From positions 2,272,001-2,336,000 of the forward strand of contig CH464491.1 of the NCBI GenBank assembly GCA_000002445.1: a stretch of DNA of 64,000 bases. Reading direction: 5' to 3'. The DNA comes from Trypanosoma brucei (Eukaryota). The notes beneath the pieces were generated by a model that worked only from the letters and a program-made list of their open reading frames with translations, was not told the DNA's origin and searched no databases. How positions within the stretch are numbered: the stretch's first letter is position 1; the number at the start of each line of letters is the position of its first letter. The position numbers and the translations under genes were made by a program. This document shows, in pieces, positions 46,815-64,000 of this stretch.

Positions 46815-47163
46815 CAAAAGCATAAGGAGGTCCACTACAATTATACTGTTGTTCCCAGATATACGGGTGTGCGCCTAAAGGGACACGTGACGTTCAAATT
46901 GGATATCCCTCCCATTGTTGACCGTATCTCACATTATTGGATATGTTGTAATCACTGACGGCTTGCTGTGAACTGCCACAGCTGTACACATGCACACACA
47001 TGTGATTCGGTTTTTCTTCTCCCAATATCCTTCCTTTCATATAATATAGGCAACCACACAATATTGGCACAACACCTGCTATCAAACTACCCTAACCCAA
47101 GTGTCTGTTTGTTTCTTTACGTCACTGGGAGGGTTTTAACAAGAACTAACATTGAGTCTGACT

Positions 47164-48881
47164 ATGTGTGGGGGAGAAGAGAATGGTGGATTGGATCAGG
47201 CACATGTGTCCTACAGTGGCAGTGCGAGTGAGCAAAACATTGCGGAAATGATTGTAGACCCATCAGGTTCCCGTCAGCCCACAGCATTCCAACTCACACT
47301 CGATTGCAATAAGGCAGGAATGGGAAATGTGGATAAGGAACGTGTGGAAGCTATTATACGTAATGTAAGGGAAGGCTCACCTTTTTTATGAATGAGCAGC
47401 GTTTGGCTGAGGGTCGAGAGAAGCAACTGCAAGAGCTGAAGCGGAAATCATCTCTCTTCACTCAGTTGTTGGGTGGTGAACGAAACGCTGCGCAGCGGAA
47501 ACAGTGGGAGCTGAAGGTTTCCAAAATAGAACAGGAGCTTGAGGCTACGCGTCGACTGGGAACTTATATCCATTTAGACATGGACATGTTTTATGCTGCT
47601 GTTGAAATCAAGAAGCATCCGGAGTACGCCGCCATTCCGCTTGCCATAGGCACAATAACGAGGTTGATAACAACAAATTATGTTGCGCGTGGACGTGGTA
47701 TTCGTCAAGGTATGCCAGGTTTCCTTGCTCTAAAAATCTGCCCGAATTTGCTCATTCTGCCTCCTGATTTCGATGCTTACAATGAGGAATCCAATACTGT
47801 GCGCCGTATTGTTGCTGAATACGACCCTAATTATATCAGCTTTGGTTTGGATGACTTTACTCTCGAAGTAAGTGCCTACATAGAGCGTTTTGAGGGAACC
47901 AAAACAGCCGAAGATGTGGCTTCTGAACTGCGTGTGCGTGTATTTGGTGAAACAAAGTTGACAGCAAGTGCTGGTATTGGACCCACTGCAGCACTTGCCA
48001 AGATTGCCAGTAATATTAATAAGCCGAATGGACAACATGATCTTAATCTTCACACCCGAGGGGATGTGATGACATACGTCAGGGATTTGGGTCTACGTTC
48101 TGTGCCTGGTGTTGGGAAGGTTACGGAAGCTCTGTTGAAGGGACTGGGTATCACCACTCTCTCAGATATTTACAATAGGCGTGTTGAACTTTGTTACATT
48201 TTGCACAATAATTTATTTCGCTTTTTGCTTGGAGCTTCCATTGGCATTATGCAATGGCCCGATGCAGCAACGGCAGCCAATACCGAGAATTGTGAGGGGG
48301 CTACTGGAGAGCAACGGAAGGCAATCAGTAGCGAGCGATCCATCACTACTCCACGAACCAAAGAAGGTATGCAGGAAATGCTTGATACCGTATTCAATGG
48401 TGCCTATGAAGAAATGCGGAAGAGTGAGCTAATGTGTAGACGCATTTCGTTAAGAATTAGGTGGGCCTCCTATCGTTATCAACAATACACAAAAAGTTTG
48501 ATACAATATTCAGATGACTCTGCAACCCTTCGCCGCGCAGTGGATGGTTTACTGTTACCGCATGCTGCAAAGTATTCAGAGATTTCACTGTTGGGGGTAC
48601 GTTTTCTTGACCTTATCTCTGCAAAAGACTTTCATATGAAAAGAAAGGGTGGTAACCAACTGTCTATTTCACAATTTATTCGCCCCAAGAAGCCGGGTGA
48701 GGTAACAGCAACCACCGGTATAAAAAGGGAGAGAACTACTGAACCGAAACAGGTTGTTGGAGTGAATCTATCATCAGATGACGAGGATGAGAATGATAGT
48801 GTTGGCTTGGCATCTAGCTCCACTATACTCGTTTCAACTGACAAAGGTACTGTTGAGAGGGAAGTTACCATAATTGAGTGA
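47164..48881 (+). pseudogene. POLK: DNA polymerase kappa-like copy 1 with a -1 frameshift (pseudogene, or a sequencing error in a T-run)
   Basis: The N-terminal ORF (track 47152..47391) ends at a TGA (47389-47391) within cttttttatgaatgag. The paralogous copies read ...ccttttt(g/a)(a/t)t(g/t)aatga(g/a)... in frame, and copy 1 is 1 nt shorter at this point. The downstream ORF 47388..48881 encodes the full catalytic core (LDMDMFYAAVE, SFGLDDFTLEVS). Confidence 0.7.
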
Positions 48882-49596
48882 AATGAGGACATCAGTCAAT
48901 AGAAATTCCCACATTGCCCAATGGCATTCATATACAAATCACCTATACACAAGTACCCATAAACAAAACACATTATACACATGTATTGTTATACAGCTAT
49001 CATATGTTTTCATTTTTTGAAGTTATACTTTATATGGTTTATTACTTACATTGTTTTTTTCTTAAGCATGCTTGTGCTCATGTACAACCAGTGGAGCAAC
49101 TGGCTAATAACTCCTTCATCTTTGTGCGGACACCTTGGTGTATCCTATACTTTCTTTGAGGCCTTCTAATCCAGGTACTTTTTACACACTGTGACGCTAA
49201 TAAGTGTAGTTCTTTCTTTTGATTAATGTCTACTGCGTGCAGTGATGCGAAAAAGTCTGTACTTTATTTGTATGTTTATCTTCGGGTTTGATTTGTTTGG
49301 TTGCTGATGGCAGTGGAAGGCCTCTGCAATTATGTTTGTGTTTTTGTTTCTTTGTGTTGCTGTTTTTCTATATTTTTGGAGTTTGTTTTTTTTCTTCCTG
49401 TTTTTTTGCACTTCTTTTCTTTGCTTTCCTCTTGCAACATATTTTTTTATGTAATTGTATTTTTTTTGTGTGTGTAATGGTGGCGGATGTTGTTTTTGTT
49501 TTAGTAGTTGAAGTTTTTGTTTGTTGTTGGATTGAGAGCGACAACGGTAGTTTGCTGATGGTTTCGTTTATTTACAGCTGCGTCTCTAGTCGTCTG

Positions 49597-50181
49597 ATGT
49601 TTGCTAGTGTGAAGAGGGCTGTTGGGCAATATTCATGTTTTCATGTGATTTGTTCCCCGCGCTTCCACAGTAACTATGTTGTGGGGGTCAACAAGGCGCC
49701 TAGTTGGATCGCGTCCCCGACAGAAAGGCGACGAAAGTTTGGTGAAGAGTGCCTTGCCGAAGGTAAAGAGCGGGATGGCGACATGGATGTAGAGCTTGTT
49801 CCCGTGGACGTGAAAAAGCTTGCTTTGCCCCTGCACCTCACGGACTCGATCCCGCAGGATATCGTCGATAATATCGTTGCGAGAGATAGAACACTTGTTT
49901 TCGCGCCAAACATGAAGATACTAGACCTGCACAGGCGGTTGTCCCGGATGAAGTATCGGATAAGCGTCCAGCCGCTTGGGAAGGTGCTGCACTTCCGATT
50001 CTTTCGGCTGTGTAAATTGTCCAGCGGTATGCCCGGAGATGTTACAGTGGAAACCTTCCGCAGCATCCAGCAGAAACTCTCCGAGTACACAAGATTTTTG
50101 GTGATGGATGAACGTTGGCCACTGGAGTTGTCATTAGAAATTACCCCCATTATTGAGCATCAACGGAAAGCAATGCTTTGA
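49597..50181 (+). CDS. Hypothetical ORF (195 aa from ATG 49597; ORF-track 49288..50181) on a non-array insert between polymerase copies 1 and 2
   Basis: The array spacer sequence is interrupted at 49335, immediately after gcaattatg. A T/G-rich UTR-like tract (49335-49596) follows, then a complex-composition ORF ending at a TGA at 50179-50181, 5 nt before the 100-N gap. No domain recognised. The upstream part of the track ORF (49288-49596) is low-complexity and probably untranslated. Confidence 0.4.
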   Translation: MFASVKRAVGQYSCFHVICSPRFHSNYVVGVNKAPSWIASPTERRRKFGEECLAEGKERDGDMDVELVPVDVKKLALPLHLTDSIPQDIVDNIVARDRTLVFAPNMKILDLHRRLSRMKYRISVQPLGKVLHFRFFRLCKLSSGMPGDVTVETFRSIQQKLSEYTRFLVMDERWPLELSLEITPIIEHQRKAML

Positions 50182-50186
50182 TGCCA

Positions 50187-50286
50187 NNNNNNNNNNNNNN
50201 NNNNNNNNNNNNNNNNNNNNNNNNNNNNNNNNNNNNNNNNNNNNNNNNNNNNNNNNNNNNNNNNNNNNNNNNNNNNNNNNNNNNNN
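50187..50286. other. Assembly gap (100 N)
   Basis: A run of exactly 100 n characters. The sequence resumes inside the array spacer (acatgtattgttatacacc...). Confidence 1.
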
Positions 50287-50991
50287 ACATGTATTGTTAT
50301 ACACCTATCATATGTTTTCATTTTTTGAAGTTATACTTTATATGGTTTATTACTTACATTGTTTTTTTCTTAAGCATGCTTGTGCTCATGTACAACCAGT
50401 GGAGCAACTGGCTAATAACTCCTTCATCTTTGTGCGGACACCTTGGTGTATCCTATACTTTCTTTGAGGCCTTCTAATCCAGGTACTTTTTACACACTGT
50501 GACGCTAATAAGTGTAGTTCTTTCTTTTGATTAATGTCTACTGCGTGCAGTGATGCGAAAAAGTGTGTACTTTATTTGTATGTTTATCTTCGGGTTTGAT
50601 TTGTTTGGTTGCTGATGACAGCGGAAGGTCTCTGCAATTATGAAAACTCATAAGGAGGTCCACTATAATTATACTGTTGTTCCCAGATATACGGGTGTGC
50701 GCCTAAAGGGACACGTGACGTTCAAATTGGATATCCCTCCCATTGTTGACCGTATCTCACATTATTGGATATGTTGTAATCACTGACGGCTTGCTGTGAA
50801 CTGCCACAGCTGTACACATGCACACACATGTGATTCGGTTTTTCTTCTCCTAATATCCTTCCTTTCATATAATATAGGCAACCACACAATATTGGCACAA
50901 CACCTGCTATCAAACTACCCTAACCCAAGTGTCTGTTTGTTTCTTTACGTCACTGGGAGGGTTTTAACAAGAACTAACATTGAGTCTGACT

Positions 50992-52704
50992 ATGTGTGGG
51001 GGAGAAGAGAATGGTGGATTGGATCAGGCACATGTGTCCTACAGTGGCAGTGCGAGTGAGCAAAACATTGCGGAAATGATTGTAGACCCATCAGCTTCCC
51101 GTCAGCCCACAGCATTCCAACTCACACTCGATTGCAATAAGGCAGGAATGGGAAATGTGGATAAGGAGCGTGTCGCTGCAGTGATACATGAGATGTCTGC
51201 GGGATCAGGGTACCTTTGCAATCAGCAGCGTTTATCAAAAAGTCGAGAGAAGCAACTGCAAGAACTCAAGCGGAAATCATCTCTCTTCACTCAGTTGTTG
51301 GGTGGTGAACGAAACGCTGCGCGGCGGACGCAGTGGGAGGTGAAGGTTTCCAAAATAGAACAGGAGCTTGAGGCTACGCGTCGACTGGGAACTTATATCC
51401 ATTTAGACATGGACATGTTTTATGCTGCTGTTGAAATCAAGAAGCATCCGGAGTACGCCAACGTTCCGCTTGCAGTTGGAACTAAAACAATGCTAACAAC
51501 CGCAAATTATGTTGCTAGAGGTTGTGGTGTCCGTCCTGGTATGCCAGGTTATATCGGATTGAAGATTTGCCCGAATTTGCTCATTCTGCCTCCTGATTTC
51601 GATACTTACAATGAGGAATCCAATACTGTGCGCCGTATTGTTGCTGAATACGACCCTAATTACATCAGCTTTGGTTTGGATGAACTGACCCTTGAGGTAA
51701 GTGCCTACATAGAGCGTTTTGAGGGAACCAAAACAGCCGAAGATGTGGCTTCTGAACTGCGTGTGCGTGTATTTGGTGAAACAAAGTTGACAGCAAGTGC
51801 TGGTATTGGACCCACTGCAGCACTTGCCAAGATTGCCAGTAATATTAATAAGCCGAATGGACAACATGATCTTAATCTTCACACCCGAGGGGATGTGATG
51901 ACATACGTCAGGGATTTGGGTCTACGTTCTGTGCCTGGTATTGGGAAGGCTATGGAAGCTCTGTTGAAGGGACTGGGTATCACCACTCTCTCAGATATTT
52001 ACAATAGGCGTGTTGAACTTTGTTATATCTTTACCGAAAAAACATATCGCTTTTTGCTTGGAGCTTCCATTGGCATTATGCAATGGCCCGATGCGTGTAA
52101 TATACCGGGTGGCTCTGTCGATGATGGGACAGGTGTGGGAAGGAAGTCAGTTGGTAGTGAACGTACATTCAAAATATTGCAAAGCAAAGAGGAATTACAG
52201 GAAATTGTTGATTTTATTTTTAATTCTTCGTATGATGAACTAAAGAAACATGAGCTGATGTGTAGACAGGTTTCGTTAAGAATAAGGTGGGCAACCTATC
52301 GATCCCGGCAGTATACTATGAATTTAGCCCAACATTCAGATGACTCTGCAACCCTTCGCCGCGCAGTGGATGGTTTACTGTTACCGCATGCTGCAAAGTA
52401 CTCAGATATGTCGTTACTGGGGATGCGTCTGTTAGACCTTATCTTTGCAAAAGACTTTCATATGAAAAGAAAGGGTGGTAACCAACTGTCTATTTCACAA
52501 TTTATTCGCCCCAAGAAGCCGGGTGAGGTAACAGCAACCACCGGTATAAAAAGGGAGAGGACTACTGAACCGAAACAGGTTGTGGAAATAATAATATCAT
52601 CAGATGACGAGGATGAGAATGATAGTGTTGGCTTGGCATCTAGCTCCACTATACTCGTTTCAACTGGCAAAGGTACTGTTGAGAGGGAAGTTACCATAAT
52701 TTAG
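50992..52704 (+). CDS. POLK: DNA polymerase kappa-like (Y-family/DinB) copy 2, variant A little-finger cassette
   Basis: Y-family motifs are present: motif I LDMDMFYAAVE, motif III SFGLDELTLEVSAY, and HhH/thumb SVPGIGKAMEALLKGLGITTLSDI. Copy-specific cassettes are ANVPLAVGTKTMLTTANYVARGCGVRPGMPGYIGLKI and CNIPGGSVDDGTGVGRKSVGSERTFKILQSKEELQEIVDF... The ORF-track start 50980 is a TTG; the first ATG is at 50992. Confidence 0.9.
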   Translation: MCGGEENGGLDQAHVSYSGSASEQNIAEMIVDPSASRQPTAFQLTLDCNKAGMGNVDKERVAAVIHEMSAGSGYLCNQQRLSKSREKQLQELKRKSSLFTQLLGGERNAARRTQWEVKVSKIEQELEATRRLGTYIHLDMDMFYAAVEIKKHPEYANVPLAVGTKTMLTTANYVARGCGVRPGMPGYIGLKICPNLLILPPDFDTYNEESNTVRRIVAEYDPNYISFGLDELTLEVSAYIERFEGTKTAEDVASELRVRVFGETKLTASAGIGPTAALAKIASNINKPNGQHDLNLHTRGDVMTYVRDLGLRSVPGIGKAMEALLKGLGITTLSDIYNRRVELCYIFTEKTYRFLLGASIGIMQWPDACNIPGGSVDDGTGVGRKSVGSERTFKILQSKEELQEIVDFIFNSSYDELKKHELMCRQVSLRIRWATYRSRQYTMNLAQHSDDSATLRRAVDGLLLPHAAKYSDMSLLGMRLLDLIFAKDFHMKRKGGNQLSISQFIRPKKPGEVTATTGIKRERTTEPKQVVEIIISSDDEDENDSVGLASSSTILVSTGKGTVEREVTII

Positions 52705-53509
52705 TGAAGTGAGGACATCAGTCAATGGAAACGCTCACATTGCCCAATGGCATTCATATACAAATCACCTATACACAAGTACCCATAAACAAAACACATT
52801 ATACACATGTATTGTTATACAGCTATCATATGTTTTCATTTTTTGAAGTTATACTTTATATGGTTTATTACTTACATTGTTTTTTTCTTAAGCATGCTTG
52901 TGCTCATGTACAACCAGTGGAGCAACTGGCTAATAACTCCTTCATCTTTGTGCGGACACCTTGGTGTATCCTATACTTTCTTTGAGGCCTTCTAATCCAG
53001 GTACTTTTTACACACTGTGACGCTAATAAGTGTAGTTCTTTCTTTTGATTAATGTCTACTGCGTGCAGTGATGTGAAAAAGTCTGTACTTTATTTGTATG
53101 TTTATCTTCGGGTTTGATTTGTTTGGTTGCTGATGACAGCGGAAGGCCTCTGCAATTATGAAAACTCATAAGGAGGTCCACTATAATTATACTGTTGTTC
53201 CCAGATATACGGGTGTGCGCCTAAAGGGACACGTGACGTTCAAATTGGATATCCCTCCCATTGTTGACCGTATCTCACATTATTGGATATGTTGTAATCA
53301 CTGACGGCTTGCTGTGAACTGCCACAGCTGTACACATGCACACACATGTGATTCGGTTTTTCTTCTCCCAATATCCTTCCTTTCATATAATATAGGCAAC
53401 CACACAATATTGGCACAACACCTGCTATCAAACTACCCTAACCCAAGTGTCTGTTTGTTTCTTTACGTCATTGGGAGGGTTTTAACAAGAACTAACATTG
53501 AGTCTGACT

Positions 53510-55228
53510 ATGTGTGGGGGAGAAGAGAATGGTGGATTGGATCAGGCACATGTGTCCTACAGTGGCAGTGCGAGTGAGCAAAACATTGCGGAAATGATTG
53601 TAGACCCATCAGCTTCCCGTCAGCCCACAGCATTCCAACTCACACTCGATTGCAATAAGGCAGGAATGGGAAATGTGGATAAGGAACGTGTGGAAGCTAT
53701 TATACGTGGTGCCGGGGAAGGCACACCTTTTTTATTAAATGAACAACGTTTGGTTGAGGGTCGAGAGAAGCAACTGCGGGAACTCAAACGGAAATCATCT
53801 CTCTTCACTCGGTTGTTGGGTGGTGAACGAAACGCTGCGCAGCGGACGCAATGGGAGGTGAAGGTTTCCAAAATAGAACAGGAGCTTGAGGCTACGCGTC
53901 GACTGGGAACTTATATCCATTTAGACATGGACATGTTTTATGCTGCTGTTGAAATCAAGAAGCATCCGGAGTACGCCACCATTCCGCTTGCCATAGGCAC
54001 CATGACGAGGCTACAAACAGCAAATTACATTGCGCGTGGACGTGGTATTCGTCAAGGTATGCCAGGTTTCCTTGCTCTAAAAATCTGCCCGAATTTGCTC
54101 ATTCTGCCTCCTGATGATGATTCTTACAATGAGGAATCCAATACTGTGCGCCGTATTGTTGCTGAATACGACCCTAATTACATAGTTGTTGGTTTGGATG
54201 AACTAGCCCTTGAGGTAAGTGCCTACATAGAGCGTTTTGAGGGAACCAAAACAGCCGAAGATGTGGCTTCTGAACTGCGTGTGCGTGTATTTGGTGAAAC
54301 AAAGTTGACAGCAAGTGCTGGTATTGGACCCACTGCAGCACTTGCCAAGATTGCCAGTAATATTAATAAGCCGAATGGACAACATGATCTTAATCTTCAT
54401 ACCCGAGAGGATGTGATGACATACGTCAGGGATTTGGGTCTACGTTCTGTGCCTGGTGTTGGGAAGGTTACGGAAGCTCTGTTGAAGGGACTGGGTATCA
54501 CCACTCTCTCAGATATTTACAATAGGCGTGTTGAACTTTGTTACATTTTGCACAATAATTTATTTCGCTTTTTGCTTGGAGCTTCCATTGGCATTATGCA
54601 ATGGCCCGATGCAGCAACGGCAGCCAATACCGAGAATTGTGAGGGGGCTACTGGAGAGCAACGGAAGGCAATCAGTAGCGAGCGATCCATCACTACTCCA
54701 CGAACCAAAGAAGGTATGCAGGAAATGGTTGATACCGTATTCAATGGTGCCTATGAAGAAATGCGGAAGAGTGAGATAATGTGTAGACGGATATCCCTCA
54801 CAATTAGATGGGCGTCTTATCGTTATCAACAATACACAAAAAGTTTGATACAACATTCAGATGACTCTGCAACCCTTCGCCGCGCAGTAGACGAGCTCAT
54901 GTTACCGCACGCTGCAAAGTATTCAGAGATGTGTTTGTTGGGGGTACGTCTCTCGGACCTTATCTCTGCAAAAGACTTTCATATGAAAAGAAAGGGTGGT
55001 AACCAACTGTCTATTTCACAATTTATTCGCCCCAAGAAGCCGGGTGAGGTAACAGCAACCACCGGTATAAAAAGGGAGAGGACTACTGAACCGAAACAGG
55101 TTGTGGAAATAATAATATCATCAGATGACGAGGATGAGAATGATAGTGTTGGCTTGGCATCTAGCTCCACTATACTCGTTTCAACTGACAAAGGTACTGT
55201 TGAGAGGGAAGTTACCATAATTGAGTGA
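53510..55228 (+). CDS. POLK: DNA polymerase kappa-like copy 3, variant B cassette set
   Basis: Shares the same conserved blocks as the other copies. Motif III reads VVGLDELALEVS. It carries a unique PPDDDSYNEES block. The thumb/little-finger linker is CEGATGEQRKAISSERSITTPRTKEGMQEMVDTVF, shared with copies 1 and 6. Confidence 0.9.
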   Translation: MCGGEENGGLDQAHVSYSGSASEQNIAEMIVDPSASRQPTAFQLTLDCNKAGMGNVDKERVEAIIRGAGEGTPFLLNEQRLVEGREKQLRELKRKSSLFTRLLGGERNAAQRTQWEVKVSKIEQELEATRRLGTYIHLDMDMFYAAVEIKKHPEYATIPLAIGTMTRLQTANYIARGRGIRQGMPGFLALKICPNLLILPPDDDSYNEESNTVRRIVAEYDPNYIVVGLDELALEVSAYIERFEGTKTAEDVASELRVRVFGETKLTASAGIGPTAALAKIASNINKPNGQHDLNLHTREDVMTYVRDLGLRSVPGVGKVTEALLKGLGITTLSDIYNRRVELCYILHNNLFRFLLGASIGIMQWPDAATAANTENCEGATGEQRKAISSERSITTPRTKEGMQEMVDTVFNGAYEEMRKSEIMCRRISLTIRWASYRYQQYTKSLIQHSDDSATLRRAVDELMLPHAAKYSEMCLLGVRLSDLISAKDFHMKRKGGNQLSISQFIRPKKPGEVTATTGIKRERTTEPKQVVEIIISSDDEDENDSVGLASSSTILVSTDKGTVEREVTIIE

Positions 55229-56030
55229 AATGAGGACATCAGTCAATAGAAATTCCCACATTGCCCAATGGTATTCATATACAAATCACCTATACACAAG
55301 TACCCATAAACAAAACACATTATACACATGTATTGTTATACACCTATCATATGTTTTCATTTTTTGAAGTTATACTTTATATGGTTTATTACTTACATTG
55401 TTTTTTTCTTAAGCATGCTTGTGCTCATGTACAACCAGTGGAGCAACTGGCTAATAACTCCTTCATCTTTGTGCGGACACCTTGGTGTATCCTATACTTT
55501 CTTTGAGGCCTTCTAATCCAGGTACTTTTTACACACTGTGACGCTAATAAGTGTAGTTCTTTCTTTTGATTAATGTCTACTGCGTGCAGTGATGCGAAAA
55601 AGTCTGTACTTTATTTGTATGTTTATCTTCGGGTTTGATTTGTTTGGTTGCTGATGACAGCGGAAGGCCTCTGCAATTATGAAAACTCATAAGGAGGTCC
55701 ACTATAATTATACTGTTGTTCCCAGATATACGGGTGTGCGCCTAAAGGGACACGTGACGTTCAAATTGGATATCCCTCCCATTGTTGACCGTATCTCACA
55801 TTATTGGATATGTTGTAATCACTGACGGCTTGCTGTGAACTGCCACAGCTGTACACATGCACACACATGTGATTCGGTTTTTCTTCTCCCAATATCCTTC
55901 CTTTCATATAATATAGGCAACCACACAATATTGGCACAACACCTGCTATCAAACTACCCTAACCCAAGTGTCTGTTTGTTTCTTTACGTCACTGGGAGGG
56001 TTTTAACAAGAACTAACATTGAGTCTGACT

Positions 56031-57746
56031 ATGTGTGGGGGAGAAGAGAATGGTGGATTGGATCAGGCACATGTGTCCTACAGTGGCAGTGCGAGTGAGC
56101 AAAACATTGCGGAAATGATTGTAGACCCATCAGGTTCCCGTCAGCCCACAGCATTCCAACTCACACTCGATTGCAATAAGGCAGGAATGGGAAATGTGGA
56201 TAAGGAACGTGTGGAAGCTATTATACGTAATGTATCTGAGGGTTCTTCCTTTTTGATGAATGAGCAGCGGAAGGCTGAGGGTCGAGAGAAGCAACTGCAA
56301 GAGCTCAAGCGGAAATCATCTCTCTTCACTCAGTTGTTGGGTGGTGAACGAAACGCTGCGCGGCGGAAACAGTGGGAGCTGAAGGTTTCCAAAATAGAAC
56401 AGGAGCTTGAGGCTACGCGTCGACTGGGAACTTATATCCATTTAGACATGGACATGTTTTATGCTGCTGTTGAAATCAAGAAGCATCCGGAGTACGCCAA
56501 CGTTCCGCTTGCAGTTGGGAGTGTGTCAATGTTGTCTACCGCAAATTATGTTGCACGTGAATGTGGTATTCGCTCCGGTATGCCAGGTTATATCGGATTG
56601 AAGGTCTGCCCGAATTTGCTCATTCTGCCTCCTGATTTCGATGCTTACAATGAAGAATCCAATACTGTGCGCCGTATTGTTGATGAATACGACCCTAATT
56701 TTACCTCTCTCGGTTTGGATGACTTGACCCTCGAGGTAAGTGCCTACATAGAGCGTTTTGAGGGAACCAAAACAGCCGAAGATGTGGCTTCTGAACTGCG
56801 TGTGCGTGTATTTGGTGAAACAAAGTTGACAGCAAGTGCTGGTATTGGACCCACTGCAGCACTTGCCAAGATTGCCAGTAATATTAATAAGCCGAATGGA
56901 CAACATGATCTTAATCTTCATACCCGAGGGGATGTGATGACATACGTCAGGGATTTGGGTCTACGTTCTGTGCCTGGTGTTGGGAAGGTTACGGAAGCTC
57001 TGTTGAAGGGACTGGGTATCACCACTCTCTCAGATATTTACAATAGGCGTGTTGAACTTTGTTACATTTTGCACAATAATTTATTTCGCTTTTTGCTTGG
57101 AGCTTCCATTGGCATTATGCAATGGCCCGATGCAGCAACGGCAGCCAATACCGAGAATTGTGAGGGGGCTACTGGAGGGCAACGGAAGGCAATCAGTAGC
57201 GAGCGATCTTTTTATGTGTTACATAGCAAAGAGCAGTTGCATGAAATGATTTACAGTATTTTTGAAGAGGCCTATGAAGAAATGCGACAGAATGAGATGT
57301 TGTGTCGTCAGATCTCCTTGCTTGTGCGTTGGTCGTCTTATCGTTATCAACAATACACAAAAAGTTTGATACAATATTCAGATGACTCTGCAACCCTTCG
57401 CCGCGCAGTGGATGGTTTACTGTTACCGCACGCTGCAAAGTATTCAGAGATGTGTTTGTTGGGGGTACGTTTTCTTGACCTTATCTCTGCAAAAGACTTT
57501 CATATGAAAAGAAAGGGTGGTAACCAACTGTCTATTTCACAATTTATTCGCCCCAAGAAGCCGGGTGAGGTAACAGCAACCACCGGTATAAAAAGGGAGA
57601 GGACTACTGAACCGAAACAGGTTGTGGAAATAATAATATCATCAGACGACGAGGATGAGAATGATAGTGTTGGCTTGGCATCTAGCTCCACTATACTCGT
57701 TTCAACTGACAAAGGTACTGTTGAGAGGGAAGTTACCATAATTTAG
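56031..57746 (+). CDS. POLK: DNA polymerase kappa-like copy 4, variant C linker
   Basis: Motif III reads SLGLDDLTLEVS, a D-D version. The palm cassette is ANVPLAVGSVSMLSTANYVARECGIRSGMPGYIGLKV. The linker ...SERSFYVLHSKEQLHEMIYSIFEEAYEEMRQNEMLCRQISLLVRW is unique to this copy. Confidence 0.9.
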   Translation: MCGGEENGGLDQAHVSYSGSASEQNIAEMIVDPSGSRQPTAFQLTLDCNKAGMGNVDKERVEAIIRNVSEGSSFLMNEQRKAEGREKQLQELKRKSSLFTQLLGGERNAARRKQWELKVSKIEQELEATRRLGTYIHLDMDMFYAAVEIKKHPEYANVPLAVGSVSMLSTANYVARECGIRSGMPGYIGLKVCPNLLILPPDFDAYNEESNTVRRIVDEYDPNFTSLGLDDLTLEVSAYIERFEGTKTAEDVASELRVRVFGETKLTASAGIGPTAALAKIASNINKPNGQHDLNLHTRGDVMTYVRDLGLRSVPGVGKVTEALLKGLGITTLSDIYNRRVELCYILHNNLFRFLLGASIGIMQWPDAATAANTENCEGATGGQRKAISSERSFYVLHSKEQLHEMIYSIFEEAYEEMRQNEMLCRQISLLVRWSSYRYQQYTKSLIQYSDDSATLRRAVDGLLLPHAAKYSEMCLLGVRFLDLISAKDFHMKRKGGNQLSISQFIRPKKPGEVTATTGIKRERTTEPKQVVEIIISSDDEDENDSVGLASSSTILVSTDKGTVEREVTII

Positions 57747-58551
57747 TGAAATGAGGACATCAGTCAATAGAAATTCCCACATTGCCCAATGGCATTCATA
57801 TACAAATCACCTATACACAAGTACCCATAAACAAAACACATTATACACATGTATTGTTATACAGCTATCATATGTTTTCATTTTTTGAAGTTATACTTTA
57901 TATGGTTTATTACTTACATTGTTTTTTTCTTAAGCATGCTTGTGCTCATGTACAACCAGTGGAGCAACTGGCTAATAACTCCTTCATCTTTGTGCGGACA
58001 CCTTGGTGTATCCTATACTTTCTTTGAGGCCTTCTAATCCAGGTACTTTTTACACACTGTGACGCTAATAAGTGTAGTTCTTTCTTTTGATTAATGTCTA
58101 CTGCGTGCGGTGATGCGAAAAAGTCTGTACTTTATTTGTATGTTTATCTTCGGGTTTGATTTGTTTGGTTGCTGATGACAGTGGAAGGTCTCTGCAATTA
58201 TGAAAACTCATAAGGAGGTCCACTATAATTATACTGTTGTTCCCAGATATACGGGTGTGCGCCTAAAGGGACAGGTGACGTTCAAATTGGATATCCCTCC
58301 CATTGTTGACCGTATCTCACATTATTGGATATGTTGTAATCACTGACGGCTTGCTGTGAACTGCCACAGCTGTACACATGCACACACATGTGATTCGGTT
58401 TTTCTTCTCCCAATATCCTTCCTTTCATATAATATAGGCAACCACACAATATTGGCACAACACCTGCTATCAAACTACCCTAACCCAAGTGTCTGTTTGT
58501 TTCTTTACGTCACTGGGAGGGTTTTAACAAGAACTAACATTGAGTCTGACT

Positions 58552-60267
58552 ATGTGTGGGGGAGAAGAGAATGGTGGATTGGATCAGGCACATGTGTCCT
58601 ACAGTGGCAGTGCGAGTGAGCAAAACATTGCGGAAATGATTGTAGGCCCATCAGGTTCCCGTCAGCCCACAGCATTCCAACTCACACTCGATTGCAATAA
58701 GGCAGGAATGGGAAATGTGGATAAGGAACGTGTGGAAGCTATTATACGTAATGTATCTGAGGGTTCTTCCTTTTTGATGAATGAGCAGCGGAAGGCTGAG
58801 GGTCGAGAGAAGCAACTGCAAGAACTCAAGCGGAAATCATCTCTCTTCACTCAGTTGTTGGGTGGTGAACGAAACGCTGCGCAGCGGAAACAGTGGGAGC
58901 TGAAGGTTTCCAAAATAGAACAGGAGCTTGAGGCTACGCGTCGACTGGGAACTTATATCCATTTAGACATGGACATGTTTTATGCTGCTGTTGAAATCAA
59001 GAAGCATCCGGAGTACGCCGCCATTCCACTTGCAGTTGGGAGTGTGTCAATGTTGTCTACCGCAAATTATGTTGCACGTGAATGTGGTATTCGCTCCGGT
59101 ATGCCAGGTTATATCGGATTGAAGGTCTGCCCGAATTTGCTCATTCTGCCTCCTGATTTCGATGCTTACAATGAGGAATCCAATACTGTGCGCCGTATTG
59201 TTGCTGAATACGACCCTAATTTTACCTCTCTCGGTTTGGATGAACTGACCCTTGAGGTAAGTGCCTACATAGAGCGCTTTGAGGGAACCAAAACAGCCGA
59301 AGATGTGGCTTCTGAACTGCGTGTGCGTGTATTTGGTGAAACAAAGTTGACAGCAAGTGCTGGTATTGGACCCACTGCAGCACTTGCCAAGATTGCCAGT
59401 AATATTAATAAGCCGAATGGACAACATGATCTTAATCTTCATACCCGAGAGGATGTGATGACATACGTCAGGGATTTGGGTCTACGTTCTGTGCCTGGTA
59501 TTGGGAAGGTTACGGAAGCTCTGTTGAAGGGACTGGGTATCACCACTCTCTCAGATATTTACAATAGGCGTGTTGAACTTTGTTATATTTTTACCGAAAA
59601 AACATATTGTTTTTTGCTTGGAGCTTCCATTGGCATTATGCAATGGCCCGATATGTGCAGCATACTTGGTGCCTCCATCGATGATGGGACAGGTGTGGGA
59701 AGGAAGTCAGTTGGGTGTGAACGTACATTCAAAACATTTCAAAACAAAGAAGAATTGCAGGAAATGGTTGATTTCTTAGTCGACTACTCATATGATGAAC
59801 TAAAGAAACATGAGCTGATGTGTAGACAGGTTTCGTTAAAAATTCGATGGAATTCCTACCGTCATCAACAATACACAAAGAATTTGACTCAATATTCAGA
59901 TGACTCTGCAACCCTTCGCCGCGCAGTAGACGAGCTCATGTTACCGCACGCTGCAAAGTATTCAGAGATGCGGCTGCTGGGGGTACGTTTTCTTGACCTT
60001 ATCTTTGCAAAAGACTTTCATATGAAAAAAAAGGGTGGTAACCAACTGTCTATTTCACAATTTATTCGCCCCAAGAAGCCGGGTGAGGTAACAGCAACCA
60101 CCGGTATAAAAAGGGAGAGGACTACTGAACCGAAACAGGTTGTGGAAATAATAATATCATCAGATGACGAGGATGAGAATGATAGTGTTGGCTTGGCATC
60201 TAGCTCCACTGTACTCGTTTCAACTGACAAAGGTACTGTTGAGAGGGAAGTTACCATAATTGAGTGA
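58552..60267 (+). CDS. POLK: DNA polymerase kappa-like copy 5, variant A-prime linker
   Basis: Motif III reads SLGLDELTLEVS. The palm cassette is as in copy 4. The linker MCSILGASIDDGTGVGRKSVGCERTFKTFQNKEELQEMVDFLVDYSYDELKKHELMCRQVSLKIRW is related to copy 2 but distinct. Confidence 0.9.
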   Translation: MCGGEENGGLDQAHVSYSGSASEQNIAEMIVGPSGSRQPTAFQLTLDCNKAGMGNVDKERVEAIIRNVSEGSSFLMNEQRKAEGREKQLQELKRKSSLFTQLLGGERNAAQRKQWELKVSKIEQELEATRRLGTYIHLDMDMFYAAVEIKKHPEYAAIPLAVGSVSMLSTANYVARECGIRSGMPGYIGLKVCPNLLILPPDFDAYNEESNTVRRIVAEYDPNFTSLGLDELTLEVSAYIERFEGTKTAEDVASELRVRVFGETKLTASAGIGPTAALAKIASNINKPNGQHDLNLHTREDVMTYVRDLGLRSVPGIGKVTEALLKGLGITTLSDIYNRRVELCYIFTEKTYCFLLGASIGIMQWPDMCSILGASIDDGTGVGRKSVGCERTFKTFQNKEELQEMVDFLVDYSYDELKKHELMCRQVSLKIRWNSYRHQQYTKNLTQYSDDSATLRRAVDELMLPHAAKYSEMRLLGVRFLDLIFAKDFHMKKKGGNQLSISQFIRPKKPGEVTATTGIKRERTTEPKQVVEIIISSDDEDENDSVGLASSSTVLVSTDKGTVEREVTIIE

Positions 60268-60969
60268 AATGAGGACATCAGTCAATAGAAATTCCCTTTA
60301 TTCTAGCGGCATATTTATAGATATTTATTTCGGTTTTCCCATTCGGCAGAGAGAAATACAACATGTATTAAGTATTGGGGAGCAACTGGCTAATAACTCC
60401 TTCATCTTTGTGCGGACACCTTGGTGTATCCTATACTTTCTTTGAGGCCTTCTAATCCAGGTACTTTTTACACACTGTGACGCTAATAAGTGTAGTTCTT
60501 TCTTTTGATTAATGTCTACTGCGTGCAGTGATGCGAAAAAGTGTGTACTTTATTTGTATGTTTATCTTCGGGTTTGATTTGTTTGGTTGCTGATGACAGC
60601 GGAAGGCCTCTGCAATTATGAAAACTCATAAGGAGGTCCACTATAATTATACTGTTGTTCCCAGATATACGGGTGTGCGCCTAAAGGGACAGGTGACGTT
60701 CAAATTGGATATCCCTCCCATTGTTGACCGTATCTCACATTATTGGATATGTTGTAATCACTGACGGCTTGCTGTGAACTGCCACAGCTGTACACATGCA
60801 CACACATGTGATTCGGTTTTTCTTCTCCCAATATCCTTCCTTTCATATAATATAGGCAACCACACAATATTGGCACAACACCTGCTATCAAACTACCCTA
60901 ACCCAAGTGTCTGTTTGTTTCTTTACGTCATTGGGAGGGTTTTAACAAGAACTAACATTGAGTCTGACT

Positions 60970-62685
60970 ATGTGTGGGGGAGAAGAGAATGGTGGATTGG
61001 ATCAGGCACATGTGTCCTACAGTGGCAGTGCGAGTGAGCAAAACATTGCGGAAATGATTGTAGACCCATCAGGTTCCCGTCAGCCCACAGCATTCCAACT
61101 CACACTCGATTGCAATAAGGCAGGAATGGGAAATGTGGATAAGGAACGTGTGGAAGCTATTATACGTAATGTATCTGAGGGTTCTTCCTTTTTGATGAAT
61201 GAGCAGCGGAAAGCTGAGGGTCGAGAGAAGCAACTGCAAGAGCTGAAGCGGAAATCATCTCTCTTCACTCGGTTGTTGGGTGGTGAACGAAACGCTGCGC
61301 AGCGGAAACAGTGGGAGCTGAAGGTTTCCAAAATAGAACAGGAGCTTGAGGCTACGCGTCGACTGGGAACTTATATCCATTTAGACATGGACATGTTTTA
61401 TGCTGCTGTTGAAATCAAGAAGCATCCGGAGTACGCCGCCATTCCGCTTGCCATAGGCACAATAACGAGGTTGATAACAACAAATTATGTTGCGCGTGGA
61501 CGTGGTATTCGTCAAGGTATGCCAGGTTTCCTTGCTCTAAAAATCTGCCCGAATTTGCTCATTCTGCCTCCTGATTTCGATGCTTACAACGAAGAATCCA
61601 ATACTGTGCGCCGTATTGTTGCTGAATACGACCCTAATTATATCAGCTTTGGTTTGGATGACTTTACTCTCGAAGTAAGTGCCTACATAGAGCGTTTTGA
61701 GGGAACCAAAACAGCCGAAGATGTGGCTTCTGAACTGCGTGTGCGTGTATTTGGTGAAACAAAGCTGACAGCAAGTGCTGGTATTGGACCCACTGCAGCA
61801 CTTGCCAAGATTGCCAGTAATATTAATAAGCCGAATGGACAACATGATCTTAATCTTCATACCCGAGAGGATGTGATGACATACGTCAGGGATTTGGGTC
61901 TACGTTCTGTGCCTGGTGTTGGGAAGGTTACGGAAGCTCTGTTGAAGGGACTGGGTATCACCACTCTCTCAGATATTTACAATAGGCGTGTTGAACTTTG
62001 TTACATTTTGCACAATAATTTATTTCGCTTTTTGCTTGGAGCTTCCATTGGCATTATGCAATGGCCCGATGCAGCAACGGCAGCCAATACCGAGAATTGT
62101 GAGGGGGCTACTGGAGAGCAACGGAAGGCAATCAGTAGCGAGCGATCCATCACTACTCCACGAACCAAAGAAGGTATGCAGGAAATGCTTGATACCGTAT
62201 TCAATGGTGCCTATGAAGAAATGCGGAAGAGTGAGATAATGTGTAGACGGATATCCCTCACAATTAGATGGGCCTCTTATCGTTATCAACAATACACAAA
62301 AAGTTTGATACAACATTCAGATGACTCTGCAACCCTTCGCCGCGCAGTGGATGGTTTACTGTTACCGCACGCTGCAAAGTATTCAGAGATGTGTTTGTTG
62401 GGGGTACGTCTCTCGGACCTTATCTCTGCAAAAGACTTTCATATGAAAAGAAAGGGTGGTAACCAACTGTCTATTTCACAATTTATTCGCCCCAAGAAGC
62501 CGGGTGAGGTAACAGCAACCACCGGTATAAAAAGGGAGAGGACTACTGAACCGAAACAGGTTGTGGAAATAATAATATCATCAGACGACGAGGATGAGAA
62601 TGATAGTGTTGGCTTGGCATCTAGCTCCACTATACTCGTTTCAACTGGCAAAGGTACTGTTGAGAGGGAAGTTACCATAATTTAG
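60970..62685 (+). CDS. POLK: DNA polymerase kappa-like copy 6, variant B
   Basis: Nearly identical to copy 1's downstream ORF (AAIPLAIGTITRLITTNYVARGRGIRQGMPGFLALKI; SFGLDDFTLEVS) but intact, with no frameshift. It ends VTII followed by a TAG. Confidence 0.9.
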   Translation: MCGGEENGGLDQAHVSYSGSASEQNIAEMIVDPSGSRQPTAFQLTLDCNKAGMGNVDKERVEAIIRNVSEGSSFLMNEQRKAEGREKQLQELKRKSSLFTRLLGGERNAAQRKQWELKVSKIEQELEATRRLGTYIHLDMDMFYAAVEIKKHPEYAAIPLAIGTITRLITTNYVARGRGIRQGMPGFLALKICPNLLILPPDFDAYNEESNTVRRIVAEYDPNYISFGLDDFTLEVSAYIERFEGTKTAEDVASELRVRVFGETKLTASAGIGPTAALAKIASNINKPNGQHDLNLHTREDVMTYVRDLGLRSVPGVGKVTEALLKGLGITTLSDIYNRRVELCYILHNNLFRFLLGASIGIMQWPDAATAANTENCEGATGEQRKAISSERSITTPRTKEGMQEMLDTVFNGAYEEMRKSEIMCRRISLTIRWASYRYQQYTKSLIQHSDDSATLRRAVDGLLLPHAAKYSEMCLLGVRLSDLISAKDFHMKRKGGNQLSISQFIRPKKPGEVTATTGIKRERTTEPKQVVEIIISSDDEDENDSVGLASSSTILVSTGKGTVEREVTII

Positions 62686-63490
62686 TGAAATGAGGGCATC
62701 AGTCAATAGAAATTCCCACATTGCCCAATGGCATTCATATACAAATCACCTATACACAAGTACCCATAAACAAAACACATTATACACATGTATTGTTATA
62801 CACCTATCATATGTTTTCATTTTTTGAAGTTATACTTTATATGGTTTATTACTTACATTGTTTTTTTCTTAAGCATGCTTGTGCTCATGTACAACCAGTG
62901 GAGCAACTGGCTAATAACTCCTTCATCTTTGTGCGGACACCTTGGTGTATCCTATACTTTCTTTGAGGCCTTCTAATCCAGGTACTTTTTACACACTGTG
63001 ACGCTAATAAGTGTAGTTCTTTCTTTTGATTAATGTCTACTGCGTGCAGTGATGCGAAAAAGTGTGTACTTTATTTGTATGTTTATCTTCGGGTTTGATT
63101 TGTTTGGTTGCTGATGACAGTGGAAGGTCTCTGCAATTATGAAAACTCATAAGGAGGTCCACTATAATTATACTGTTGTTCCCAGATATACGGGTGTGCG
63201 CCTAAAGGGACACGTGACGTTCAAATTGGATATCCCTCCCATTGTTGACCGTATCTCACATTATTGGATATGTTGTAATCACTGACGGCTTGCTGTGAAC
63301 TGCCACAGCTGTACACATGCACACACATGTGATTCGGTTTTTCTTCTCCTAATATCCTTCCTTTCATATAATATAGGCAACCACACAATATTGGCACAAC
63401 ACCTGCTATCAAACTACCCTAACCCAAGTGTCTGTTTGTTTCTTTACGTCACTGGGAGGGTTTTAACAAGAACTAACATTGAGTCTGACT

Positions 63491-63977
63491 ATGTGTGGGG
63501 GAGAAGAGAATGGTGGATTGGATCAGGCACATGTGTCCTACAGTGGCAGTGCGAGTGAGCAAAACATTGCGGAAATGATTGTAGACCCATCAGCTTCCCG
63601 TCAGCCCACAGCATTCCAACTCACACTCGATTGCAATAAGGCAGGAATGGGAAATGTGGATAAGGAACGTGTGGAAGCTATTATACGTAATGTATCTGAG
63701 GGTTCTTCCTTTTTGATGAATGAGCAGCGGAAAGCTGAGGGTCGAGAGAAGCAACTGCAAGAGCTGAAGCGGAAATCATCTCTCTTCACTCAGTTGTTGG
63801 ATGGTGAACGAAACGCTGCGCAGCGGAAACAGTGGGAGCTGAAGGTTTCCAAAATAGAACAGGAGCTTGAGGCTACGCGTCGACTGNGAACTTATATCCA
63901 TTTAGACATGGACATGTTTTATGCTGCTGTTGANATCAAGAAGCATCCGGAGTACGCCGCCATTCCGCTTGCCATAG
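63491..63977 (+). CDS. POLK: DNA polymerase kappa-like copy 7, 5' partial (truncated by Ns and the window end)
   Basis: Same N-terminal sequence as copies 4-6 (MCGGEENGG...NVSEGSSFLMNEQRKAEGREKQ...LDMDMFYAAV). Two single-n ambiguities occur at 63887 and 63934, then a run of N from 63978. Confidence 0.8.
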
Positions 63978-64000
63978 NNNNNNNNNNNNNNNNNNNNNNN

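What the first reader, a model, noticed from the sequence alone, without database searches (positions are those of the whole stretch)
49335..50286. Foreign ORF inserted at a precise point in the array spacer, next to an assembly gap
After copy 1, the spacer is normal up to ...gaaggcctctgcaattatg (49334). It is then replaced by ~260 nt of T/G-rich UTR-like sequence and a 195-aa complex-composition ORF (49597-50181) unrelated to the polymerase. A 100-N gap follows, and the spacer then restarts from its own 5' part, so the first ~350 nt of the spacer are duplicated on both sides of the insert. The first array unit upstream at 46,815 also begins at this aaaactcataagg position, and the copy 5/6 spacer is rearranged just upstream in the same spacer half. 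That marks this part of the spacer as a recombination hotspot. The ORF could be a captured gene, a second alternating unit type of the array, or a mis-scaffolded contig.
Basis: seen in the sequence. Interest (0 to 1): 0.55.

Follow-up and report, generated by a model that had tools for sequence, protein, structure and literature searches.

The report
Assembly-gap duplicate of array's downstream gene
The "foreign ORF" is the first 40% of the gene that normally sits just after this DNA polymerase kappa gene array, left stranded beside an unresolved gap in the Trypanosoma brucei TREU927 reference assembly, so it is an assembly artefact and not a biological insertion.

Summary
The spacer breaks at 49334|49335. 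A 262-nt T-rich tract follows, then an ORF ending at 50181, then 100 N. The spacer restarts with 356 nt duplicated.

The "foreign insertion" reading fails. All annotated proteins in the window are identical to GenBank T. b. brucei TREU927 chr 11 entries. The ORF from ATG 49477 is XP_828923.1 (234 aa). It equals the first 231 residues of XP_828934.1 (581 aa), a gene 11 protein accession numbers later, past the remaining array proteins.

In T. b. gambiense DAL972 and T. equiperdum IVM-t1 the array is uninterrupted after copy 1. Window 49335-50186 matches (98%) the sequence directly after their last copy, at the same ...GCAATTATG|TTTGTG... breakpoint.

The stop codon lies 8 nt from the contig end, in a stretch with four homopolymer-length differences from both relatives. 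"Copy 1" carries a 3' marker (GVNL) found only in the last copy elsewhere.

So the left contig reads upstream flank, exactly one unit, then downstream flank. That is either a collapsed repeat or a contracted allele, joined by a gap to the rest of the array.

The matching start and end phase follows from tandem duplication and is not a hotspot. The full gene is a divergent UmuC/Y-family paralogue, so it is not unrelated to the polymerase. Interest is low.

The parts
46816..49334 (+). Exactly one array unit (2519 nt), the window's "copy 1". It holds a Pol kappa gene with a frameshift near 47388. GenBank annotates only the 497-aa part, 47388-48881, as XP_828922.1. The unit is a mosaic. Its 5' and middle parts resemble the first copy and copy 6. 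Its 3' part resembles the last copy.
   Evidence: Unit boundaries. Against DAL972 copies, diagnostic sites switch from copy-1-like (47654-48431) to copy-7-like (48443-48876). Identity to copy 1 of DAL972 and IVM-t1 drops to 88-95% over 48386-48800. The C-terminal marker EPKQVV-GVNL is found only here in the window, and only in the last copy in DAL972 and IVM-t1. The protein is identical to EAN79810.
48979..49334 (+). The 3'-flank part of the spacer. It is present on both sides of the gap and so represents contig overlap.
   Evidence: 351/356 identical to 50287-50642. The last 30 nt, GATGGCAGTGGAAGGCCTCTGCAATTATG, are identical to the last-copy spacer of IVM-t1.
49335..49476 (+). The native intergenic region between the last Pol kappa copy and the downstream UmuC-like gene. 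It is T-rich and polypyrimidine-rich. Depending on which ATG is the true start, it may extend to 49557 or 49596.
   Evidence: Collinear at about 98% with DAL972 L005:12172 onward and IVM-t1 L008:9736 onward. In both strains it begins at the same GCAATTATG|TTTGTG junction after the final array copy. Composition.
49477..50181 (+). Truncated 5' fragment of the conserved UmuC/IMS-domain paralogue. It is annotated in TREU927 as the 234-aa "hypothetical protein, conserved" XP_828923.1 / EAN79811.1.
   Evidence: Identical to P0027. It equals residues 1-231 of the 581-aa TREU927 protein XP_828934.1, with 233/234 identities. It is 204/207 identical to the N-terminus of the DAL972 554-aa protein. The fragment alone gives no Pfam hit, but the full-length protein hits PF00817.
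50165..50186 (+). The end of the contig. It carries four one-base homopolymer-length differences that create the TGA at 50179-50181, a false stop.
   Evidence: The window reads CGGAAAGCAATGCTTTGATGCCA. Both DAL972 and IVM-t1 read CGGAAGCAAATGCTTGAATGCCAAGGGG. TREU927's own full-length protein reads ...RKQML and continues past this point.
50187..50286 (.). A 100-N scaffold gap of unknown size that joins the left contig to a contig internal to the array.
50287..63977 (+). The next contig. It starts inside the spacer that precedes copy 2 and carries Pol kappa copies 2-6 plus part of copy 7.
   Evidence: Repeat families with 2518/2521/2418 spacing. Copies 2-6 are identical to EAN79812-EAN79816. 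Copy 2 is 98.6% identical to DAL972 copy 2.
63978..64000 (.). A second N run that cuts copy 7. It is preceded by single Ns at 63887 and 63934. The array is therefore unresolved at more than one point.
   Evidence: GenBank lists a partial Pol kappa fragment, "Tb11.12.0019, partial" (EAN79818), further along the array.

Best explanation
The window is T. b. brucei TREU927 chromosome 11 at the DNA polymerase kappa tandem array.

The array arose by tandem duplication of the segment 46816-49334. Every internal spacer is therefore the gene's 3' flank (ending ...GCAATTATG) fused to its 5' flank (AAAACTCATAAGG...). The true distal end of the array continues from ...GCAATTATG into TTTGTGTTTTTG..., then a T-rich intergenic region, and then a 541-581 aa UmuC-like gene.

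The left contig (to 50186) contains the upstream flank, exactly one unit, and then that distal flank. The contig runs out 700 nt into the downstream gene. The repeat was collapsed: a first-copy-like 5' part is joined to a last-copy-like 3' part. A 100-N gap then links this contig to another contig that starts inside the array.

The "insert" is thus a redundant, truncated second representation of the array's downstream flank. The same gene is present in full after the array as XP_828934.1. The ORF's stop codon is an artefact of the poor-quality contig end.

What is shown: the identity of the sequences, the breakpoints, the redundancy, and the absence of the block at this position in other strains. 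What is inferred: that the upstream-flank/one-unit/downstream-flank link is an assembly collapse and not a real allele.
For: - The window's proteins are identical to TREU927 GenBank entries EAN79810-79816.
- The ORF is identical to XP_828923.1 and to residues 1-231 of XP_828934.1, 11 accession numbers later; nine of the ten numbers between were recovered, all Pol kappa proteins or fragments.
- 49335-50186 is 98.1% identical to DAL972 sequence immediately after its 7th and last copy, and 97.7% identical to IVM-t1 sequence after its last copy. Both share the GCAATTATG|TTTGTG junction.
- In DAL972 and IVM-t1, copy 1 runs straight into copy 2.
- The left and right breakpoints enclose 2519 nt, which is one period.
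- "Copy 1" is last-copy-like at its 3' end, including the GVNL marker.
- The fragment ends at the gap, and its last 22 nt carry homopolymer differences from DAL972 and IVM-t1, while TREU927's own full-length protein reads on past that point.
- There is a second gap and there are ambiguous bases in the same array.
- The order Pol kappa, UmuC-like gene, 510-aa gene is conserved in DAL972, IVM-t1, T. melophagium and T. theileri, and a GP63 gene follows in the first three.
- The literature notes that T. brucei arrays can be collapsed in assembly, and lists this array with 10 copies in T. b. brucei and 7 in T. b. gambiense, with mosaic copies (PMC1855330; PMC2854126).
Against: - No reads were available, so physical linkage could not be tested.
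- TREU927's annotated last copy (EAN79821) has EIII and not GVNL. It also differs from the window's copy 1 at about 8 residues in the C-terminal half. The two "last copy plus downstream gene" representations are therefore not the same molecule read twice. This fits allelic contigs, or a second chimera, as well as it fits simple redundancy.
- The switch from first-like to last-like sequence was mapped against another subspecies' copies, and real gene-conversion mosaics are common in this array.
- About 3.4 kb of the IVM-t1 array, between loci L002 and L008, was not read.
Confidence: 0.8

Rival explanations
1. A real contracted allele. One TREU927 homologue carries a single Pol kappa unit, produced by unequal crossing-over between the first and last copies. 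The left contig would then faithfully represent that homologue, with upstream flank, one unit, and downstream gene. Only the scaffold join to the multi-copy homologue's contig would be artificial.
For: There is exactly one unit between the native flanks. The copy is a first/last mosaic, which is what unequal crossover would produce. Its 3' part differs from the annotated last copy EAN79821, as an allele would. Copy number varies between strains, 10 against 7.
Against: Assembly collapse predicts the same picture. The contig stops after only 852 nt of flank with error-like differences at its end, which suggests thin coverage and not a well-supported haplotype. Copy 1 has a frameshift at a fine-scale switch between variant types near 47388, as expected for a consensus built from mixed reads.
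Confidence: 0.13
2. A real segmental duplication in TREU927. The last-copy 3' end plus the 5' part of the downstream gene was truly copied into the array after copy 1, creating a pseudogene fragment inside the array.
For: The scaffold as deposited shows this order. The annotators kept the fragment as a gene, XP_828923.1.
Against: - The fragment ends exactly at a gap.
- The block is absent after copy 1 in DAL972 and IVM-t1.
- It occurs only once in the window and only at the array end in DAL972 and in the IVM-t1 sequence read.
- The breakpoint equals the natural array terminus, so no new junction is ever observed.
- The right-hand junction is simply missing.
Confidence: 0.05
3. A foreign or captured gene, or a second alternating unit type of the array. 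These are the first reader's other two options.
For: The fragment alone has no Pfam hit. The first database search returned nothing.
Against: One search was a false negative. The same protein family is found across Trypanosoma, always next to Pol kappa. It is a Y-family paralogue. The block does not recur in any array examined.
Confidence: 0.01

Closest known systems
Collapsed or redundant contig ends at gaps in tandem gene arrays of the T. brucei TREU927 reference. Jackson 2007 (PMC1855330) notes that arrays may be collapsed in assembly.
   Same: The break lies in a high-identity tandem array. The fragment abuts a 100-N gap. It duplicates sequence that is present in full elsewhere on the same chromosome. 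Overlapping spacer sequence lies on both sides of the gap. The contig end shows error-like differences.
   Different: The collapse here is complete, down to one unit, so the left contig reaches the far flank. The fragment was given its own gene model and RefSeq protein (XP_828923.1), which makes it look like a real small gene.
T. brucei DNA polymerase kappa tandem array. This is array 112 with sample identifier Tb11.01.0080, listed with 10 copies in T. b. brucei and 7 in T. b. gambiense (PMC2854126, Table 2).
   Same: It is the same locus. The units are 2.5 kb. The coding regions are mosaic and the spacers are nearly identical. I counted seven copies in DAL972.
   Different: Nothing is new about the array itself. 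The finding concerns only how its ends are represented in the assembly.
The conserved trypanosome UmuC/impB-domain protein XP_828934.1 (TREU927, 581 aa), CBH17854.1 (DAL972, 554 aa) and RHW68369.1 (T. equiperdum, 541 aa, named "impB/mucB/samB family").
   Same: The window ORF is the N-terminal 231 residues of this protein.
   Different: The window copy is truncated by the contig end. Its last three codons and its stop are not those of the real gene.

Membership tests
Assembly artefact: redundant or collapsed contig end at a scaffold gap | The feature ends at a run of N, and the sequences flanking the gap overlap. | tested here: met
   The fragment ends 5 nt before the 100-N run. A 356-nt spacer overlap lies across the gap, 351/356 identical.
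Assembly artefact: redundant or collapsed contig end at a scaffold gap | The same sequence exists complete elsewhere in the same genome. | tested here: met
   P0027 (the window ORF) equals residues 1-231 of TREU927 XP_828934.1. This was shown at protein level only, because the distal DNA lies outside the window.
Assembly artefact: redundant or collapsed contig end at a scaffold gap | Independent assemblies of close relatives lack the feature at this position and have it at the expected native position. | tested here: met
   In DAL972 and IVM-t1, copy 1 is followed directly by copy 2. In both, the block is found only after the last copy.
Assembly artefact: redundant or collapsed contig end at a scaffold gap | Reads or clones do not support the scaffold's linear order. 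| not testable with these tools
   No read data were available.
Y-family DNA polymerase (Pfam IMS/UmuC, PF00817), for the gene the ORF belongs to | The IMS domain scores above Pfam's gathering score. | tested here: met
   Full-length DAL972 orthologue: 24.7 bits against a cut-off of 23.2, covering profile positions 66-148 only. The window fragment alone gives no hit.
Y-family DNA polymerase (Pfam IMS/UmuC, PF00817), for the gene the ORF belongs to | Homology to a bona fide Pol kappa across the palm, thumb and little-finger regions. | tested here: met
   BLASTP gives 25% identity over 258 residues, E = 6e-13. hhalign gives probability 98.1%, E = 7e-14, over 253 columns running from residue 190 to 479.
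Y-family DNA polymerase (Pfam IMS/UmuC, PF00817), for the gene the ORF belongs to | The catalytic carboxylates are retained (the D-x-D motif and the S-L-D-E motif). | tested here: inconclusive
   In the hhalign register, Pol kappa D230-E231 aligns with L/T/V189-E190 (W-P-x-E) in all nine orthologues, so that Asp is absent. The N-terminal 190 residues, where the first motif should lie, do not align at all.
Captured foreign gene or mobile insertion | [quoted passage not shown] | tested here: not met
   The gene is a conserved syntenic neighbour of Pol kappa in four other trypanosome genomes. The left junction is the native array terminus. No right junction exists, only a gap.
Second alternating unit type of the array | The block recurs periodically within the array. 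| tested here: not met
   There is a single occurrence in the window. There is none within the 7-copy DAL972 array or the parts of the IVM-t1 array that were read.

The most novel reading that the evidence does not exclude
TREU927 is truly heterozygous at this locus. One homologue would carry the Pol kappa array contracted to a single recombinant first/last copy directly followed by the UmuC-like gene. The left contig would then be a real haplotype, and only the scaffold join would be wrong. This would be a natural example of an extreme difference in array copy number between alleles, 1 copy against 10 or more.
Probability: 0.13. Interest if true: 0.2.

Novelty: not a real feature. Interest (0 to 1): 0.07.

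Why it matters
The biological significance is small. The practical value is for curation.

The TREU927 reference carries a RefSeq/UniProt protein, XP_828923.1 / Q384H0 (234 aa, "hypothetical protein, conserved"). It is a truncated duplicate of XP_828934.1 / Q384F9 with an artefactual stop. It also carries a 497-aa "Pol kappa", XP_828922.1, from a frameshifted and probably chimeric copy.

These entries can inflate gene counts. Reads, RNA-seq and proteomic evidence will map ambiguously between the fragment and the true gene. They can also mislead analyses of array structure, as happened here.

The case also shows why array start and end points share the same unit phase without any recombination hotspot.

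Tried and rejected
(1) The search for homologous proteins with the 194-aa ORF returned nothing. This was a false negative of the word index. The full-length orthologue found the family at once, and the exact 234-aa protein is in the collection.

(2) Exact look-ups found no record. I tried the 194-aa ORF, the 234-aa ORF, the HAD gene, window Pol kappa copies 2 and 6, and TREU927 P0003. TREU927 contigs appear not to be indexed there. I therefore walked along DAL972 and IVM-t1 using proteins.

(3) Pfam on the fragment alone gave no family.

(4) I considered that "copy 1" is simply TREU927's last copy read twice. I rejected this because it differs from EAN79821 at about 20 residues and is closer to copy 6 over residues 125-375.

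(5) I considered the minus-strand ORF 49674-50150. I dropped it because the plus-strand frame is 99% identical to annotated orthologues.

(6) Paper searches for ABACAS with TREU927, for the accession numbers, and for Tb11.12 identifiers gave nothing useful.

(7) A search for the rest of the downstream gene elsewhere in the window found nothing.

Full report
**1. What is in the sequence**

The window carries a head-to-tail array of 2518-2521-nt units. Each unit encodes a Y-family polymerase with the Pfam domains IMS, IMS_HHH and IMS_C.

After the first unit, the spacer follows the array consensus up to 49334 (...CTCTGCAATTATG) and then diverges completely. What follows is:
- a 262-nt tract, 55% T;
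- an open frame ending with TGA at 50179-50181, with in-frame ATGs at 49477, 49558 and 49597;
- five more bases;
- exactly 100 N, at 50187-50286.

After the gap, the sequence resumes inside the spacer. 50287-50642 repeats 48979-49334 with 351/356 identities.

The first unit's homology begins at 46816-46821. So 46816-49334 is 2519 nt, exactly one period.

**2. Where the window comes from**

An exact look-up of the neighbouring CCCH zinc-finger protein found three records: T. b. gambiense DAL972 chr 11, T. equiperdum IVM-t1 and T. equiperdum OVI.

Cluster listings then showed that every annotated protein in the window is identical to a consecutive run of GenBank TREU927 entries:
- copy 1 (497 aa) is EAN79810;
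- the ORF from ATG 49477 (234 aa) is EAN79811 / XP_828923.1, "hypothetical protein, conserved";
- copies 2-6 are EAN79812-79816.

The window is therefore the T. b. brucei TREU927 reference, chromosome 11, at the known DNA polymerase kappa array. This is array 112 (Tb11.01.0080), listed with 10 copies in T. b. brucei and 7 in T. b. gambiense (PMC2854126).

**3. What the "insert" is**

I stitched three overlapping DAL972 loci into 43.5 kb. DAL972 has seven uninterrupted units. The spacer of the seventh ends ...GCAATTATG and continues TTTGTGTTTTTG..., which is the same junction as window 49334|49335.

Window 48700-50186 aligns collinearly with DAL972 across three elements: the last copy's 3' end, the downstream intergenic region, and the first 207 codons of a 554-aa gene. 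IVM-t1 shows the same arrangement at 97.7% identity. Its last-copy spacer ends GATGGCAGTGGAAGGCCTCTGCAATTATG|TTTGTG, identical to the window.

In both relatives, copy 1 runs directly into copy 2 with a normal spacer.

Within TREU927 itself, the 234-aa ORF equals residues 1-231 of the 581-aa protein XP_828934.1 (EAN79822). That entry lies 11 accession numbers later. Nine of the ten numbers between (EAN79812-16, EAN79818-21) were recovered and all are Pol kappa proteins or fragments; EAN79817 was not recovered.

The only difference is at residue 232, three codons before the stop. At DNA level, the window's last 22 nt differ from both DAL972 and IVM-t1 by four one-base homopolymer-length changes: CGGAAAGCAATGCTTTGATGCCA against CGGAAGCAAATGCTTGAATGCCA. 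The TGA lies in this stretch and is absent from both relatives, and TREU927's own full-length protein reads on past it. I infer that it is a contig-end error and not a real stop.

The ORF is thus a truncated second representation of the gene that natively follows the array.

**3a. The gene itself**

The gene is conserved across Trypanosoma. It lies immediately downstream of the Pol kappa genes in T. melophagium and T. theileri too, followed there by a 510-aa and a 546-aa gene respectively. In DAL972 and IVM-t1 a 510-aa gene and then a GP63 gene follow it, and T. melophagium also has the GP63 gene.

It is not unrelated to the polymerase:
- the full-length protein passes Pfam's IMS threshold, 24.7 bits against 23.2;
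- it aligns to Pol kappa with E = 6e-13 by BLASTP;
- hhalign gives 98% probability.

The first 190 residues, which make up most of the window fragment, show no detectable similarity to Pol kappa.

**4. Why the breakpoints coincide**

A tandem duplication of segment S sitting between flanks X and Y produces X-S-S-...-S-Y. Every internal junction is then (end of S)|(start of S).

In this array, (end of S) is ...GCAATTATG. The start of S is the flank-derived AAAA(G/CT)CATAAGG.

It is therefore automatic that the array begins at the "aaaactcataagg" phase and that the spacer "breaks" at the same phase when it meets Y. No recombination hotspot is needed. DAL972 and IVM-t1 end their arrays at the identical base.

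**5. How the scaffold came to look like this**

The left contig is X, exactly one unit, and then 852 nt of Y. Its single unit is a mosaic.

Against DAL972 copies, diagnostic sites are copy-1-like from 47654 to 48431 and copy-7-like (last copy) from 48443 to 48876. Identity to the first copy of both DAL972 and IVM-t1 drops to 88-95% over 48386-48800.

The C-terminal variant EPKQVV-GVNL occurs only in the last copy in DAL972 and IVM-t1. In the window it occurs only in "copy 1". All other copies that match the EPKQVV pattern have EIII.

The contig after the gap starts with a copy that is 98.6% identical to DAL972 copy 2. This is what one expects if the true copy 1 was followed by copy 2.

The unit junction region is 99-100% identical between copies for about 900 nt, covering spacer columns 2000-2514 plus columns 0-400. 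My own inference, not tested here, is that this exceeds a Sanger read length, so an assembler could jump between copies there.

The same array has a second N run and ambiguous bases at 63887-64000, and GenBank lists a "partial" Pol kappa fragment further on. Jackson (2007) explicitly warns that T. brucei arrays may be collapsed in the assembly (PMC1855330).

The most economical reading is a repeat collapse that let the left contig run from the proximal flank into the distal flank. That contig was then scaffolded, with a conventional 100-N gap of unknown size, to the array-internal contig. The meaning of the 100-N convention is from my own knowledge of the NCBI AGP convention and was not tested here.

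**6. Caveat and rivals**

TREU927's annotated last copy (EAN79821) carries EIII. It also differs from the window's copy 1 at several C-terminal residues. The two "last copy plus downstream gene" representations are therefore not one molecule read twice.

This is compatible with allelic contigs. It keeps alive the possibility that one homologue really has a one-unit locus produced by unequal crossover (probability about 0.13). In that case the contig is real and only the join is wrong.

A true intra-array partial duplication (about 0.05) would need a right-hand junction, and none has been seen. The foreign-gene and alternating-unit readings are refuted.

Only reads or clones can separate collapse from a contracted allele.

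**7. Verdict**

The feature is an artefact at an unresolved tandem array in a reference genome, and the ORF is already in the databases as a truncated duplicate gene model. Interest is low. The main value is a curation flag for XP_828923.1 and XP_828922.1.

Noticed in passing
window 47152-48881 (frameshift near 47388): Pol kappa copy 1 is split into a 79-aa ORF and a 497-aa ORF by a 1-nt deletion. The deletion sits exactly where the sequence switches between last-copy-type (CACCTTTTTTA) and first-copy-type (TGAATGAGCAGCG) variants. GenBank annotates only the 497-aa part, as XP_828922.1. This looks like a consensus built from mixed copies and not a genuine pseudogene.
   Followed up: partly
window 60297-60376 (spacer between copies 5 and 6); L008 2272-4690: In this spacer, about 180 nt starting about 20 nt after the stop codon are replaced by about 80 nt of unrelated sequence (TTTATTCTAGCGGCATATTTATAGATATTTAT...). 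This gives a 2418-nt unit. A 2418-nt unit is also present in the T. equiperdum IVM-t1 array, so the variant is probably real and shared between strains (its sequence in IVM-t1 was not compared). It is absent from the seven DAL972 units.
   Followed up: partly
window 63887, 63934, 63978-64000: Two single Ns and a second N run cut Pol kappa copy 7. GenBank has a 227-aa "Tb11.12.0019, partial" Pol kappa C-terminal fragment (EAN79818) further along. The array is therefore broken into at least three contigs in the reference.
   Followed up: partly
window 46816-63977 (all units): The coding regions of the Pol kappa copies are far more divergent than the spacers. Identity falls to 63-85% in 200-nt windows at unit columns 400-1000 and 1300-1900, whereas the spacers and 5' regions are 99-100% identical. 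The copies are mosaics of a few variant blocks. This agrees with the published recombination analyses of this array (PMC1855330, PMC2854126) but is still a striking pattern.
   Followed up: partly
L005:12394-14058 (DAL972); the window fragment is 49477-50181: The gene downstream of the array is a divergent UmuC/IMS paralogue conserved in at least eight other Trypanosoma species, and it lies next to Pol kappa in each of the four other genomes whose neighbourhood was read. In the hhalign register, the Asp of the Pol kappa S-L-D-E catalytic motif is L/T/V in all nine orthologues (invariant W-P-x-E). The N-terminal 190 residues have no detectable homologue. It may be an inactive pseudo-polymerase. 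The N-terminus (MFASVKRAVGQ...) looks to me like a mitochondrial presequence, which is an impression from memory and was not tested.
   Followed up: partly
window 46800-46835 compared with merged DAL972 16290-16330: The proximal edge of the array differs between subspecies. TREU927 reads ...AAAAGCATAAGGAGGTCCACTA, which matches the unit from CATAAGG. DAL972 reads ...AAAAGCATGTTCCGCATATCCACTA, which matches only from CCACTA. About 12 nt at the boundary have therefore been homogenised in one lineage.
   Followed up: no
window 41200-46800: About 5.6 kb between the CCCH zinc-finger gene and the array has no convincing ORF. It is pyrimidine-rich, low-complexity sequence on the coding strand. It aligns to DAL972 and IVM-t1 at only 88-99% with many indels. 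DAL972 annotates a 110-aa ORF here.
   Followed up: no
tool behaviour, one search compared: The word-indexed protein search returned no hit for a 194-aa query, even though that query is 99% identical to a cluster representative in the same database. Negative results from that tool for short queries should not be read as "no homologue".
   Followed up: yes
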